This document shows positions 22,031-24,559 of a DNA stretch of 64,000 bases, one piece after another. The translations under genes and the position numbers were made by a program. Numbering within the stretch: position 1 is the stretch's first letter; each line of letters begins with the position of its first letter. The stretch is from a virus (Duplodnaviria; Heunggongvirae; Uroviricota; Caudoviricetes). The stretch spans positions 1 to 64,000 of the IMG/VR virus record IMGVR_UViG_3300044807_000039; one strand, 5' to 3'. The notes below the pieces were generated by a model that saw only the letters and a list, made by a program, of their open reading frames with translations, ran no database searches and had not been told where the DNA came from.

Positions 22031-22033
22031 GGG

Positions 22034-22062
22034 TTGACACTCCACACCGAGCATGCTAGAGT
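22034..22062 (+). promoter_or_regulatory. consensus promoter TTGACA-N17-TAGAGT driving non-coding region upstream of rsr
   Basis: TTGACA 22034-39, TAGAGT 22057-62. Confidence 0.55.
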
Positions 22063-22700
22063 AGTAAACAGCACGAGCCGAAGATAGTCCGTTAACACCT
22101 ACTAATGCTAACACGGACAATCACCTACATGTTCGAGCTGAAAACTTAACGCAAGGGTCGCCGGTCATCTGTTCTCACTCTGAATGAAAATACGGATGCC
22201 AACCACATACCTTTGCTGCACAACCTAAATTGTATGAGCCGAAGGAACGTCCGTTTTCAAATTAATTGGTAATTGACGCCCGACACGGGCACTCGGATTT
22301 CCACCCCATGTTCATACTTCACAACTTAAAAGTACGAGTCGAATGAATTTCCTTTATCAAATTGAAATTGAAAATTGCAGGTTCGAGTCCTGCCGGGTCC
22401 ACTCAAGGGCCTGCGTGTGGTACGTTAAAAAACTGGAAACTCACCAACTATATTCGTGCTTACTGGAAGCTAGCGCCAAGGTGGCAAAGCGGTTTTGAAC
22501 ACCGTGCCAAGTGTTAAAGCTTGAGGTTTCGATTACTTTAGCTTCCGCAGTAAGTCCGAGCCGATTATAGTCGTTAAACTCAAACAATATGTTCCGGGTT
22601 CGAATCCCGGTGCCTGCAAGGGTATAGTTCAATGGGAAGAACATTTGTCAACAATACGATTATTATTACATGCTCGGGCTATTTTTATGTCCAAAGACAA
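22063..22700 (+). ncRNA. structured non-coding region with tRNA-like modules; candidate Y-RNA-like RNA(s) (contains tRNA-Ser)
   Basis: no ORF >25 aa; repeated 'GAGCCGAAG..TCCGTT' units; T-arms GCAGG-TTCGAGT-CCTGC and CCGGG-TTCGAAT-CCCGG with acceptor-like strands. Confidence 0.4.
22465..22547 (+). tRNA. tRNA-Ser (TGA), class II
   Basis: acceptor GGAAGCT/AGCTTCC, anticodon CGGT-TTTGAAC-ACCG, variable arm CAAG-TGTTAAAG-CTTG, T-arm GAGGT-TTCGATT-ACTTT. Confidence 0.55.
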
Positions 22701-22711
22701 TAGGGGATAGC

Positions 22712-22924
22712 ATGGCATTACGAAAAGGTGACACCGTAAGACGTAAGACCGGAAGTCAAATGCCGATTGGAAAGATCGATAAGATTATTAAATCCGAGGC
22801 TGATCCAAAAAATCCAATTGCAGTAGTTAAACTTTACAACAATAAGCTTTTGGAGATCAAGGCTTCCCTTCTGGTAAAGGTGACTCCTCCCAGAGAAATT
22901 CTTAAGAACTACAAGCCTCAATAA
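22712..22924 (+). CDS. small basic protein (Tudor/KOW-like?)
   Basis: MALRKGDTVRRKTGSQMPIGKIDKII... Confidence 0.4.
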   Translation: MALRKGDTVRRKTGSQMPIGKIDKIIKSEADPKNPIAVVKLYNNKLLEIKASLLVKVTPPREILKNYKPQ

Positions 22925-22957
22925 GTATATTCAAATCAGCTAGACGATACAAAGGAG

Positions 22958-24559
22958 ATGGGCCAAATGTCCAAGGCACTAAAGGCAATTAACCACAAGA
23001 ACGCCCTTGCAACCGAGCAAGGTAAGCCAACCCAGGTCAAGAACAATGGCGGAGGCTATAGCTTCAAGGTTGATGATTGGAGCCGTCTAGAGCGCTTCCT
23101 TATTCTCGGAACCGATGGTGGAACTTATTACGTCGGTCAGAATGATCTTACCAAGCAGAACACCGATTTTGTTAACGTTCTCCTGAAGAAGGATGCCGCA
23201 GAGGTTTTGCGCCGTACTGTTGACGTTTCGGATAAGGGCCGTGCACGTTTCAACTCCCAGGCTCTTTACGTTCTTGCTGCGGCAATGAACACCGAGGGAG
23301 TTGACAAGGCTTCGGTTAAGTCTGCTGTAGCGAAGGTTGCTCGTACCTCAACCCACCTGTTTGAGTATGCACAGTACTTGGAAAACCTTGGTGGTTGGGG
23401 ACGTGCGAAGCGTGAGAGCATTGCAAACTGGTACACCGAGAAGTCGGATGACCAGCTAGCTTTGCAGCTTGTTAAGTATAGGCAGCGCAACGGCTGGACT
23501 CACCGTGACATGATGCGCCTTGCACACCCTAAGGGCATGTCGCAGGTTCTTGGTAACTTCGCACTTGGCAAGGCACTTGACGGACCAGTTCCGGCAATCC
23601 TTGAAGGCTACCTTAAGGTTCAGGAAGCTAAGACTGCGAAGGAAGTTGTTGCATTGGTTCTGGAATACCGTCTTCCTTGGGAGACCGTTCCAACCGAGTG
23701 GCACAAGGATCTTTCGGTATGGCGCGCGCTTTTCGAGGCGGGCATGGGTCAGACAGCTCTCATTCGTAACGTTACTCGTTTTGCTCGATTGAATGCCTTC
23801 TCGGATCTGATCTTTGCAAAGCAGTACGCGGATAAGCTTGCGAACGCAGAGAGTATTCGTAAAGGACGCATTCACCCGATTGCGTTTCTTAACGCTTCTA
23901 TTGTTCACGAGCGTGGTCAGCTGAAGACCATTACCGAACACGGTTATGGCTATAAGCATCTTTCAAAGGATTGGACCACAAATCCAAAGGTTTTGAAGGC
24001 TTTGCAGGATGGGTTCTATGCTGCCTTTGGTAACATTGAGCCTGCAAACAAGCGCACCATGGTTGCTCTGGACGTTTCTGGTAGCATGGGCAGCTATGCC
24101 AACGGCATGGATCTTACTTGCGCGGAAGTTGGAGCAGCAATTTCAATGTTCATTCTGCGTAGCGAGCCATACACCGAGATTCGAGGCTTCTCTAGCTCAT
24201 TCGTTGATCTTGGTTTAACCGAAAACGATTCCTTCAAGCAGGTGCTTGCAAAGACCAACCGTATGAACTTCGGTTCAACCAATGCGGCATTGCCAATGCA
24301 GCACGCGCAGAAGAACAACCAGGAAATTGATACCTTTGTTGTTGTCACCGACAACGAGGTGAACACTGGCAAGCAGCCTTTCCGTGCACTAGAGTCCTAC
24401 CGTAATGCCACTGGTATCCCGGCAAGGATGGCAGTATTCGGAGTTTCAGCAAGCCCGTTCACTATCGCTGACCCGGATGACAAGGGTAGCTTAGATTTCG
24501 TAGGATTCGACGCAAATGCCCCCCGAGCACTTGCTGATTTCTCTGCGGGTCGTCTGTAA
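22958..24559 (+). CDS. rsr: Ro60/Rsr homologue (TROVE domain + vWA/MIDAS)
   Basis: 'VKYRQRNGWTHRDMMRLAHP' Ro60 signature; C-terminal vWA 'DVSGSM'; 533 aa. Confidence 0.85.
   Translation: MGQMSKALKAINHKNALATEQGKPTQVKNNGGGYSFKVDDWSRLERFLILGTDGGTYYVGQNDLTKQNTDFVNVLLKKDAAEVLRRTVDVSDKGRARFNSQALYVLAAAMNTEGVDKASVKSAVAKVARTSTHLFEYAQYLENLGGWGRAKRESIANWYTEKSDDQLALQLVKYRQRNGWTHRDMMRLAHPKGMSQVLGNFALGKALDGPVPAILEGYLKVQEAKTAKEVVALVLEYRLPWETVPTEWHKDLSVWRALFEAGMGQTALIRNVTRFARLNAFSDLIFAKQYADKLANAESIRKGRIHPIAFLNASIVHERGQLKTITEHGYGYKHLSKDWTTNPKVLKALQDGFYAAFGNIEPANKRTMVALDVSGSMGSYANGMDLTCAEVGAAISMFILRSEPYTEIRGFSSSFVDLGLTENDSFKQVLAKTNRMNFGSTNAALPMQHAQKNNQEIDTFVVVTDNEVNTGKQPFRALESYRNATGIPARMAVFGVSASPFTIADPDDKGSLDFVGFDANAPRALADFSAGRL

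What the first reader, a model, noticed from the sequence alone, without database searches (positions are those of the whole stretch)
22031..24559. Phage Ro60/Rsr gene preceded by a promoter-driven ~640-nt non-coding region containing tRNA-like modules
ORF 22958-24559 has the Ro60 TROVE signature (YRQRNGWTHRDMMRLAHP) plus a vWA MIDAS motif. Upstream on the same strand, a consensus TTGACA-N17-TAGAGT promoter (22034-22062) opens a 22063-22700 stretch with no credible ORF. That stretch contains repeated GAGCCGAAG..TCCGTT units, T-arm hairpins with TTCGAGT/TTCGAAT loops followed by acceptor-like strands, and one class-II tRNA-Ser. Bacterial and phage Rsr are known to bind Y RNAs with tRNA-like domains that are usually encoded adjacent to rsr, so this is a strong candidate Y RNA locus. 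Other tRNA-like oddities in the arrays (15959-16258, 34161-34300) may be additional Rsr ligands.
Basis: partly seen in the sequence, partly recalled or inferred. Interest (0 to 1): 0.8.

Follow-up and report, generated by a model that had tools for sequence, protein, structure and literature searches.

The report
Phage Ro60 gene with Y-RNA array
A phage gene for the RNA-binding ring protein Ro60 (Rsr) is preceded by one promoter-to-terminator unit holding five small non-coding "Y RNA" modules and a tRNA-Ser-like element; this protein-plus-RNA partnership is already known in bacteria and phages, and here it is unusually expanded.

Summary
The ORF is a full-length Ro60/Rsr with TROVE and vWA_Ro60 domains. 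Its likely start is 22967, not 22958.

The 22063-22700 stretch is non-coding. It contains five end-to-end hairpin modules: Y1 22071-22138, Y2 22151-22216, Y3 22232-22317, Y4 22332-22459 and Y5 22554-22679. A degenerate tRNA-Ser(UGA)-like element (22465-22551) lies between Y4 and Y5.

Every module has the same base: an 8-bp helix, then C-GAA (the published GNCGAA / "CGAA" Ro-binding motif), with a conserved YAU plus complementary strand at the 3' end. Y4 and Y5 also carry YrlA-type tRNA-like domains.

The layout, promoter and terminal U-run recur in about 11 related metagenomic phages. Compensatory base changes support every module type. My covariance model also finds unannotated modules upstream of Ro in Streptomyces phage Moab and Mycobacterium phage Rizal.

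Rfam's YrlA model scores only 29 bits (threshold 69). No expression or binding data exist. Phage Ro60 with upstream Y RNAs is already published, so this is a new member of a known kind.

The parts
22034..22062 (+). Sigma-70-type promoter: TTGACA, 17 nt, TG-TAGAGT. The predicted start site lies about 1-2 nt before Y1.
   Evidence: One search gives 10/12 matches with a TG extension. TTGACA-N17-TAAGCT is at the same position in L008, L011 and others.
22071..22138 (+). Y1, a 68-nt hairpin Y-RNA-like module. Its base is GCACGAGC-C-GAAG ... ACAU-GUUCGAGC.
   Evidence: Descriptor hit. R1 scores 30.5 bits, E 5.5e-6. The MFE fold has an 8-bp base plus a CGAA internal loop. The Y1/Y2-type alignment has 13/18 pairs with compensatory changes.
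22151..22216 (+). Y2, a 66-nt hairpin module with a variant motif: GCAAGGGU-C-GCCG ... ACAU-ACCUUUGC. It is the ortholog of the first module of relatives and shares AUCUGUUCUCACU with them.
   Evidence: R1 scores 19.6 bits. Fold z-score is -3.29. Covariation is shown.
22232..22317 (+). Y3, an 86-nt hairpin module. Its base is GUAUGAGC-C-GAAG ... CCAU-GUUCAUAC.
   Evidence: The alignment of 10 orthologs has 7/17 pairs with compensatory changes. R1 is only 13.3 bits.
22332..22459 (+). Y4, a 128-nt module. Its base is GUACGAGU-C-GAAU ... CUAU-AUUCGUGC. It carries a T arm (22377-22393), a closed acceptor-like stem (22394-22413) with G1-C72, G2-C71, G3.U70 and A73, and a reduced D-like hairpin (22414-22424).
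   Evidence: R1 scores 67 bits, E about 1e-14, and this module was not in the training set. The 11 orthologs give 14/27 pairs with compensatory changes. Rfam's partial hits to tmRNA models cover the T arm plus acceptor.
22465..22551 (+). Class-II tRNA-Ser(UGA)-like element with anticodon UGA at 22496-22498. Its T stem is weak, with U53-A61 in place of the universal G53-C61.
   Evidence: ARAGORN and Rfam do not call it here. ARAGORN calls the orthologs tRNA-Ser(tga) in L002, L003, L006, L009 and L024. 11/21 pairs show compensatory changes.
22554..22679 (+). Y5, a 126-nt YrlA-type module. Its base is GUCCGAGC-C-GAUU ... ACAU-GCUCGGGC. It carries a T arm (22594-22610), a closed acceptor stem (22611-22624) and a D arm (22626-22643).
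   Evidence: Rfam YrlA matches full length at 29.4 bits, E 0.0014, below the gathering score of 69. The alignment of 7 modules has 22/34 pairs with compensatory changes. Fold z-score is -3.37.
22680..22688 (+). U-run (UAUUUUUAU) directly after the G+C-rich base helix of Y5. This looks like an intrinsic terminator and marks the end of the ncRNA unit.
   Evidence: Read. The same GCUCGGAC-UUUUUGUUUG arrangement is in all relatives. The terminator scan did not call it because the loop is too long for that tool.
22712..22924 (+). Small 70-aa ORF with RBS AGGGGA, lying between the array and rsr. Function unknown.
   Evidence: No Pfam or PHROG hit. Only weak similarity to the ORF at the same place in L002 (28% identity, E 0.02).
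22967..24559 (+). rsr, the Ro60 ortholog (530 aa from ATG 22967; the longest ORF starts at 22958). It has a TROVE ring plus a vWA domain with MIDAS.
15950..16086 (+). Tentative extra YrlA-like RNA 6.9 kb upstream. It has a long stem, T arm, acceptor stem closed by ACCACAU (N73 plus CCA encoded) and D arm. It has no GNCGAA site.
   Evidence: R1 scores 46.9 bits, E about 1e-9. Rfam YrlA scores 25.6 bits. Fold z-score is -3.14.

Best explanation
The region 22034-22690 is a single transcription unit. It produces a roughly 620-nt precursor carrying five Y-RNA-like modules and one tRNA-Ser(UGA)-like element. These are the RNA partners of the Ro60/Rsr protein encoded 280 nt downstream.

Shown here:
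- The protein is a full-length Ro60.
- All five modules share one architecture: an 8-bp basal helix, a C, then GAA (the published Ro-binding motif), and on the 3' strand a conserved YAU followed by the complementary strand.
- Two modules carry YrlA-type tRNA-like domains.
- The architecture, promoter and terminal U-run are conserved with compensatory substitutions in about 11 related phage genomes. The same kind of module lies upstream of Ro in cultured Streptomyces and Mycobacterium phages.

Inferred:
- The precursor is cut into individual Y RNAs. RNase P and RNase Z would cut at the tRNA-like element, and an endonuclease would cut at the A/U-rich AACUUAA spacers.
- Each Y RNA binds the outer surface of the Rsr ring through the helix / C / GAA site.
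- The differing distal parts (plain loops versus tRNA-like domains) gate the Rsr cavity or tether it to host partners such as PNPase. This would redirect RNA surveillance or decay during infection of a phage that itself carries 30 tRNA genes and a Thg1-like tRNA repair enzyme.
For: Protein identity: plus 363 phage records annotated 'Ro-like RNA binding protein'.

Motif clustering: 4 of the 5 plus-strand GAGYCGAW sites in 64 kb fall within 490 nt. A structure-plus-motif descriptor gives 5 tiled hits in 22071-22679, against 15 elsewhere in 128 kb over both strands.

Independent folding: the MFE fold of each module alone gives the same pattern of an 8-bp base, a 4-nt CGAA loop and a second stem.

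Compensatory changes:
- Y4 type: 14/27 pairs.
- tRNA-Ser: 11/21 pairs.
- Y5 type: 22/34 pairs.
- Y3 type: 7/17 pairs.
- Y1/Y2 type: 13/18 pairs.
- Pooled Ro site, 37 modules: 60 double-change cells against 15.5 in shuffles, and sliding the partner strand collapses pairing.

The pair next to the C switches C-G to U-A together: GAGC..AUGYUC versus GAGU..AUAUUC.

Rfam YrlA gives a full-length hit on Y5 and on an ortholog in L006 at 38.5 bits.

Model R1 was built from 7 Y5-type modules. It recovers untrained Y4 (67 bits), Y1 and Y2. It also hits Moab (80 and 79 bits) and Rizal (62 bits, plus two flanking hairpin modules).

Literature: the GNCGAAN0-1G motif lies near the 5' end of YrlA and YrlB. 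Y RNAs lie within 4 kb of rsr on the same strand. M. smegmatis YrlA and YrlB are cut from one precursor. 22 phages carry YrlA (PMC4201824). Thermus phage phiLo Ro60 binds two upstream 'CGAA-motif' Y-like RNAs and forms a complex with host PNPase (PMC12135203).
Against: There is no expression, processing or binding evidence for this phage.

Rfam's curated YrlA model is far below its gathering score: 29.4 bits here and at most 38.5 bits in relatives, against 69.

Y2 (GUCGCCGG) and Y5 (GCCGAUUA) deviate from the strict GNCGAAN0-1G motif.

Thermodynamic z-scores are modest for the single modules (-1.5 to -3.4). The whole region is not more stable than shuffles (z -1.03).

The pooled Ro-site alignment was selected with a pairing filter, so its 98% paired figure is partly circular.

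The relatives are metagenomic contigs, and some module orthologs are nearly identical to each other. The number of independent substitutions is therefore smaller than the cell counts suggest.
Confidence: 0.85

Rival explanations
1. The array acts mainly in cis, as a structured leader or attenuator of the rsr operon. The terminal hairpin plus U-run would control read-through into the small ORF and rsr, and the RNAs would not act as stable trans-acting partners.
For: Y5's base helix is followed directly by a U-run in this phage and all relatives. Only a weak promoter-like site (9/12) lies between the array and rsr, so rsr may depend on read-through.
Against: Five separately folding modules, each with a conserved protein-binding-type motif on both strands, are more than an attenuator needs. 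Orthologous modules sit kilobases from Ro and are interspersed with ORFs in Streptomyces phage Moab. Known Y RNAs are also co-transcribed with rsr (PMC4201824). The two roles are not exclusive.
Confidence: 0.05
2. The tRNA-like and hairpin modules work independently of Rsr. They would act as decoys or sponges for host tRNA-targeting nucleases, tRNA-modifying enzymes or other defence proteins.
For: The phage invests heavily in tRNA biology, with 30 tRNA genes and a conserved Thg1-like gene two genes downstream. Further permuted tRNA-like elements without a Ro site exist at 15950-16277. One relative has an Acb2/Tad1-type anti-defence ORF between the array and rsr.
Against: All five modules, including three with no tRNA-like part, keep the Ro-binding motif and its partner strand. 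The array is syntenic with rsr in every relative examined.
Confidence: 0.07
3. The stretch is a graveyard of decayed tRNA genes, or a two-piece tmRNA gene, and its resemblance to Y RNAs is fortuitous.
For: The window is full of tRNA genes. Rfam gives partial hits to permuted tmRNA and beta-tmRNA models on the Y4 T arm and acceptor. The tRNA-Ser-like element is degenerate here.
Against: ARAGORN, which detects permuted tmRNAs, finds none. No tag reading frame follows the acceptor 5' strand. Three of the five modules have no tRNA-like sequence at all. Stems are kept by compensatory changes across genomes whose Rsr proteins are only 59-72% identical. Even the odd T stem of the tRNA-like element changed on both sides, G53-C61 to U53-A61.
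Confidence: 0.03

Closest known systems
YrlA / YrlB Y RNAs of Salmonella Typhimurium and Mycobacterium smegmatis (Rfam RF02553; Chen et al. 2014, PMC4201824)
   Same: They are encoded next to rsr on the same strand. The GNCGAAN0-1G motif lies near the 5' end. The ends pair into a stem. One RNA has a T arm, a closed acceptor stem and a D arm, and the others are plain long hairpins. In M. smegmatis several Y RNAs are cut from one upstream precursor.
   Different: There are five modules instead of two, and a tRNA-Ser-like element sits inside the array. Both strands of the Ro site are conserved; the paper says only the 5' strand is recognisable in YrlA. The Rfam score is less than half the gathering score. 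Y4's acceptor-like stem keeps G3.U70 and A73.
Thermus phage phiLo Ro60 with Yrl1 and Yrl2 (NAR 2025, PMC12135203)
   Same: A phage-encoded Ro60 has Y-like RNAs immediately upstream. They were recognised by a 5'-3' stem flanking an internal loop with the CGAA motif. Binding to the phage Ro60 and to host PNPase was shown experimentally.
   Different: phiLo has two RNAs, and the passages I read describe no tRNA-like domain. The host lineage is unrelated. I did not compare the sequences directly.
Mycobacteriophage YrlA (ET08 and other Bxz1-type phages; Chen et al. 2014)
   Same: The module type is the same. In Mycobacterium phage Rizal my model finds a 150-nt YrlA-type module (62 bits) flanked by two hairpin modules. 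All three have AGGC-C-GA... / CAU-GUCU... bases and lie in the 485-nt gap before Ro.
   Different: Rizal has three modules rather than five, and no embedded tRNA. Its Rsr is only 37% identical.
Metazoan Y RNAs (hY1, hY3, hY4, hY5)
   Same: The paper compares the bacterial GNCGAA motif with the GGUCCGA contacted by Xenopus Ro60, where the vertebrate motif forms a bulged helix (PMC4201824). From my own knowledge of the Y RNA stem, the local geometry is a C-G pair, a bulged C, then a G.U pair. The phage modules can form the same geometry: GAGC-C-G with U-GYUC.
   Different: Metazoan Y RNAs have no tRNA-like domain, are made by RNA polymerase III from separate genes, and have a different loop region.
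tRNA-like domain of tmRNA, including permuted two-piece tmRNA genes
   Same: Y4 and its orthologs have a T arm followed by an acceptor 3' strand, A73, a short loop and the acceptor 5' strand. G1-C72, G2-C71 and G3.U70 are kept. Some copies encode ACCA (L002, L024, window 15950).
   Different: There is no mRNA-like tag frame and there are no pseudoknots. ARAGORN does not call it. The domain is embedded in a Ro-site stem.

Membership tests
Ro60 / Rsr protein | TROVE (HEAT-repeat ring) domain followed by a vWA domain with MIDAS residues | tested here: met
   Pfam TROVE 1.6e-35 and vWA_Ro60 8.5e-52. PDB 2NVO 4.6e-104 over residues 4-532. DxSxS, T and D are invariant in 15 relatives.
Bacterial/phage Y RNA (YrlA/YrlB type) | Encoded within about 4 kb of rsr on the same strand | tested here: met
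   The array at 22071-22679 lies 288-896 nt upstream of rsr on the + strand. The same holds in all relatives.
Bacterial/phage Y RNA (YrlA/YrlB type) | [quoted passage not shown] | tested here: met
   The match is exact in Y1 (GCCGAAG), Y3 (GCCGAAGG) and Y4 (GUCGAAUG). Y5 (GCCGAUUA) and Y2 (GUCGCCGG) are variants. The clustering is far above chance.
Bacterial/phage Y RNA (YrlA/YrlB type) | The 5' and 3' ends pair into a stem that flanks the motif | tested here: met
   An 8-bp basal helix appears in the MFE fold of every module. 6 of 9 positions show compensatory changes across 37 modules (the selection used a pairing filter). Unbiased RNAalifold predicts the same helix.
Bacterial/phage Y RNA (YrlA/YrlB type) | At least one RNA carries a tRNA-like domain: T arm, closed acceptor stem and D arm | tested here: met
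   Y5 has all three elements and Y4 has a T arm, an acceptor stem and a reduced D arm.
Bacterial/phage Y RNA (YrlA/YrlB type) | Reaches the Rfam RF02553 gathering score (69 bits) | tested here: not met
   29.4 bits for Y5. 25.6 bits at 15960-16068. At most 38.5 bits in relatives and 36 bits in mycobacteriophage Rizal, whose group is reported to have YrlA. The curated model evidently does not capture these phage versions.
Bacterial/phage Y RNA (YrlA/YrlB type) | Stable small RNA that is bound by Rsr in vivo or in vitro | not testable with these tools
   This needs RNA sequencing or Northern blots and Rsr pull-down or EMSA.
tRNA-Ser (class II) | Cloverleaf with a long variable arm, a UGA anticodon and canonical T-loop and G53-C61, recognised by tRNA finders | tested here: inconclusive
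   The cloverleaf and the UUUGAAC anticodon loop are present, and 11/21 pairs covary. In the window, ARAGORN and Rfam do not call it, and the T stem has U53-A61. ARAGORN calls five orthologs tRNA-Ser(tga).
tmRNA (standard or permuted) | tRNA-like domain plus a tag-encoding reading frame and pseudoknots, detected by ARAGORN or Rfam | tested here: not met
   ARAGORN finds no tmRNA. Rfam gives only partial hits of 18-27 bits on the T arm and acceptor. No tag frame is visible.

The most novel reading that the evidence does not exclude
The Y4-type module is more than a passive tRNA mimic. In 11 of 12 orthologs, and also in Streptomyces phage Moab, the acceptor-like stem keeps G1-C72, G2-C71, the G3.U70 wobble and A73, while positions 4-7 covary freely. 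That is the identity set of tRNA-Ala and tmRNA. The closing loop starts AC(U)C or is a plain ACCA.

If RNase P cuts before G1 and the upstream half is trimmed and CCA-tailed, as shown for M. smegmatis YrlA, the product would be a two-piece Ro-bound RNA that alanyl-tRNA synthetase could charge. That would link the phage Ro60 particle to the translation or ribosome-rescue machinery.

More broadly, the five different Y RNAs would program one Rsr ring for five different partners.
Probability: 0.12. Interest if true: 0.75.

Novelty: new member of a known kind. Interest (0 to 1): 0.45.

Why it matters
Ro60-Y RNA particles are conserved from bacteria to humans, where Ro60 is a major lupus and Sjogren autoantigen. 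What the Y RNAs do is still only partly understood.

This phage clade offers a compact natural array of five distinct Y RNAs under one promoter. It has plain and tRNA-like versions of the same orthologous module. Both strands of its Ro-binding site are clearly conserved.

Recognisable counterparts exist in cultured, genetically tractable Streptomyces and Mycobacterium phages, where they are not annotated in the two records I examined (Moab and Rizal). That makes several questions testable: why one Ro protein needs several Y RNAs, what the tRNA-like domain is for, and why tRNA-rich phages carry the system.

The result also shows that Rfam's YrlA model under-detects phage Y RNAs.

Tried and rejected
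- Megablast of the locus against 50,697 phage genomes gave no match. A single-protein scan of IMG/VR found no close relative. Relatives had to be fetched through the protein database and exact-protein look-ups.
- The metagenome and IMG/VR scans with an Rsr alignment added little.
- Rfam at gathering thresholds finds only tRNAs in the window.
- Folding the whole 649-nt region is uninformative (z -1.03).
- My first loose structure descriptor was non-specific, at about 0.9 hits per kb. I replaced it with a stricter one.
- The two-piece tmRNA idea was considered because of partial tmRNA-model hits. I rejected it for lack of a tag frame and of an ARAGORN call.
- The promoter pattern search used a spacer one base too long and is not informative.
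- The AACTTAA spacer motif is not enriched in the window as a whole. It is notable only because it recurs just before modules in the relatives.
- The supplementary tables of Chen et al. 2014 and the 2020 Annual Review on bacterial Ro60 are not held in the library. I therefore could not check which phage Y RNAs were already listed.
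Full report
**Observation**

The window comes from an uncultured, tRNA-rich phage with about 45% G+C. ARAGORN finds 30 tRNA genes. No close DNA relative exists among 50,697 phage genomes.

The ORF at 22958-24559 is a complete Ro60/Rsr:
- Pfam TROVE (1.6e-35) and vWA_Ro60 (8.5e-52).
- PHROG 850 'RNA-binding protein'.
- Full-length sequence matches to the solved structures of Deinococcus Rsr (2NVO, 4.6e-104), human RO60 and Xenopus Ro60.

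Its best matches among cultured phages are the 'Ro-like RNA binding proteins' of Streptomyces phages at 55% identity. In all, 363 phage records carry a homolog, mostly Mycobacterium and Streptomyces phages. The real start is probably ATG 22967. It lies 9 nt after AAGGAG, and the identical database protein is 530 aa.

The promoter TTGACA-17-TG-TAGAGT at 22034-22062 is there. The stretch up to the RBS of a 70-aa ORF at 22712 has no credible gene.

**Anatomy of the non-coding stretch**

GAGYCGAW occurs five times on the plus strand of the whole window, and four of these lie at 22075, 22236, 22336 and 22558. It matches GNCGAAN0-1G, the motif that Chen et al. 2014 found near the 5' end of all YrlA and YrlB RNAs and proposed as the Rsr contact (PMC4201824). 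It is also the 'CGAA motif' used to find the Y-like RNAs of Thermus phage phiLo (PMC12135203).

Each copy sits on the 5' strand of an 8-bp helix. The 3' strand of that helix is preceded by a conserved YAU. A descriptor built from this pattern (helix, C, G ... YAU, complementary helix) finds five end-to-end modules: 22071-22138, 22151-22216, 22232-22317, 22332-22459 and 22554-22679. It finds only 15 hits in the remaining 128 kb of both strands.

Folded on its own, each module gives the same picture. There is an 8-bp base, the four bases CGAA unpaired on the 5' side, a few unpaired bases on the 3' side, and then a second stem.

- Y1-Y3 are plain hairpins of 66-86 nt.
- Y4 adds a T arm, a closed acceptor-like stem and a small D-like hairpin.
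- Y5 adds a T arm, a closed acceptor stem and a D arm. This is the YrlA layout, and Rfam's YrlA model aligns to it end to end, but at only 29.4 bits against a threshold of 69.

Between Y4 and Y5 lies an 87-nt class-II cloverleaf with anticodon UGA. Y5's G+C-rich base helix is followed directly by UAUUUUUAU, which looks like a terminator.

**Comparative evidence**

The protein database holds Rsr proteins 59-72% identical to this one on roughly 130-kb metagenomic contigs. I fetched their loci.

All have the same order: promoter, a 500-860-nt gene-free gap, one to three small ORFs, rsr, a YdjM-like membrane hydrolase, a Thg1-like enzyme and an RIIA-like protein.

The gaps contain the same modules in the same order. 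There are four to six Y modules, with ARAGORN-called tRNA-Ser(tga) at the orthologous position in five genomes.

RNAalifold finds compensatory double changes in every module type:
- Y4 type: 14 of 27 predicted pairs.
- tRNA-Ser element: 11 of 21.
- Y5 type: 22 of 34.
- Y3 type: 7 of 17.
- Y1/Y2 type: 13 of 18.

I pooled the basal site of 37 distinct modules. Six of nine pairs show double changes, with 60 cells against 15.5 in shuffles, and pairing collapses when the partner strand is slid. The modules were picked with a pairing filter, so the percentage paired is partly circular. The covariation is not.

The clearest single case is the pair next to the unpaired C. It is C-G in GAGC...AUGYUC modules and U-A in GAGU...AUAUUC modules. 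The following G always faces U, or C in three modules.

One orthologous module (Y5) carries a tRNA-like domain in this phage, L015, L023 and L024. In eight other relatives it is a plain 79-85-nt hairpin with the same two stems. The tRNA-like domain is therefore a gained or lost insert.

**Model search**

I built covariance model R1 from seven Y5-type modules. It recovers the untrained Y4 (67 bits). With filters off it also recovers Y1 (30.5), Y2 (19.6) and, weakly, Y3 (13.3).

It also finds strong unannotated matches upstream of Ro in two cultured phages:
- Streptomyces phage Moab scores 80 and 79 bits. The first pair of modules lies between tRNA-Ile and tRNA-Ser(tga).
- Mycobacterium phage Rizal scores 62 bits. 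Two flanking hairpin modules carry the same AGGC-C-GA / CAU-GUCU base, giving three tandem modules in the 485-nt gap before Ro.

Rfam's YrlA model also scores only 36 bits on Rizal. The curated model simply under-detects phage versions.

**How it most likely works**

Shown: a Ro60 gene; an upstream same-strand array of five RNAs with the published Ro-binding motif in a conserved structural setting; YrlA-type tRNA-like domains; and a conserved promoter and terminator-like end.

Inferred from the families involved:
- A roughly 620-nt precursor is made from the 22034-22062 promoter, and part of it reads through to rsr.
- The precursor is cut into single Y RNAs. RNase P and RNase Z would act at the tRNA-like element. 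An endonuclease would act in the short A/U-rich spacers, many of which read AACUUAA just before a module. M. smegmatis YrlA and YrlB are likewise cut from one precursor.
- Each Y RNA binds Rsr through the helix / C / GAA site.
- The different distal domains gate the ring or tether it to partners such as host PNPase. This was shown for Deinococcus and Salmonella (PMC4201824) and for phage phiLo (PMC12135203).

The conserved neighbourhood (30 tRNAs and a Thg1-like 5'-end repair enzyme) suggests a role in keeping or policing tRNA and other structured RNA during infection. That last step is speculation.

**Comparison with what is known, and novelty**

Phage Ro60 genes have been known since 2003. 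YrlA-like RNAs next to them were reported in 22 phages in 2014. Binding of two upstream Y-like RNAs to a phage Ro60 was shown in 2025. The finding is therefore a new member of a known kind.

Four features go beyond the published picture, as far as I could check:
- The size of the array: five modules here and up to six in L024.
- The tRNA-Ser(UGA) embedded in it.
- Clear conservation of both strands of the Ro site.
- The Y4 acceptor-like stem. In 11 of 12 orthologs and in Moab it keeps G1-C72, G2-C71, G3.U70 and A73 while the rest of the stem covaries. Some copies encode ACCA after it.

That is the tRNA-Ala/tmRNA identity set. It explains the partial tmRNA-model hits. It also raises the untested possibility of RNase P cleavage, CCA addition and charging, for which M. 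smegmatis YrlA is a partial precedent.

**Limits**

There are no expression or binding data. The relatives are metagenomic, and several are close to each other. R1's E-values are rough. I could not read the supplementary lists of previously reported phage Y RNAs.

The tRNA-Ser-like element in this genome is not recognised by tRNA finders. It has U53-A61 instead of G53-C61, so it may be a processing or structural element rather than a working tRNA. It is, however, the only Ser(UGA) candidate among the tRNA genes ARAGORN found in this 64-kb window.

34161-34300 matched nothing.

Noticed in passing
window 15950-16086 and 16112-16277: Two permuted tRNA-like elements lie inside the tRNA array. Each has a T arm, an acceptor 3' strand, an encoded N73 plus CCA, an insert ending in CAU (3 nt or about 33 nt), an acceptor 5' strand and a D arm. 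Model R1 scores 46.9 and 21.5 bits, and Rfam YrlA scores 25.6 bits. Neither has a GNCGAA Ro site.
   Followed up: partly
window 16332-16407: ARAGORN calls a tRNA with a four-base anticodon (cctt) and an undetermined amino acid. Rfam tRNA scores 41 bits. It could be a frameshift-suppressor-type tRNA.
   Followed up: no
window 10215-10260 and 19318-19345: Orphan GGTTCGA-type T-arm hairpins lie between annotated tRNA genes and belong to no called tRNA.
   Followed up: no
window 24560-24704: The 145-nt spacer between rsr and the ydjM-like gene folds unusually well (z -3.46). It is absent from relatives, where the spacer is 0-60 nt. It matches no RNA family or Y model.
   Followed up: partly
window 24705-28622 and relatives L002-L024: The gene order rsr, YdjM-like membrane hydrolase, Thg1-like (tRNA-His guanylyltransferase family) and RIIA-like ATPase is conserved.
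   Followed up: partly
L023 2383-2610: In one relative an ORF with an Acb2/Tad1-hairpin Pfam hit lies between the Y-RNA array and rsr. That family contains anti-CBASS and anti-Thoeris sponges.
   Followed up: no
L022 2018-2542; L005 1876-2090: The array tolerates insertions. L022 has an HNH endonuclease ORF between the tRNA-Ser and the last Y module. L005 has a 59-aa ORF plus a second copy of the promoter between the Y3- and Y4-type modules.
   Followed up: no
L001 (Streptomyces phage Moab MT114162) 1877-2175 and 3209-3346; L025 (Mycobacterium phage Rizal NC_011272) 2596-2947: Strong Y-RNA-like modules are not annotated in these GenBank records. In Moab two modules sit between tRNA-Ile and tRNA-Ser(tga). 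In Rizal three modules are tandem in the gap before Ro.
   Followed up: partly
window 22143-22149, 22323-22329 and junctions in L002-L024: A short AACUU(A/G)A motif recurs 2-5 nt upstream of most Y modules and may be a processing signal. It is not enriched in the window as a whole.
   Followed up: partly
L026 (Streptomyces phage Samisti12) 7085-7145: The Y model hits the T arm of one tRNA plus the D arm of the next. This is the 'dimeric tRNA' false positive that Chen et al. warned about, and it is a caution for any scan of tRNA-rich phages.
   Followed up: yes
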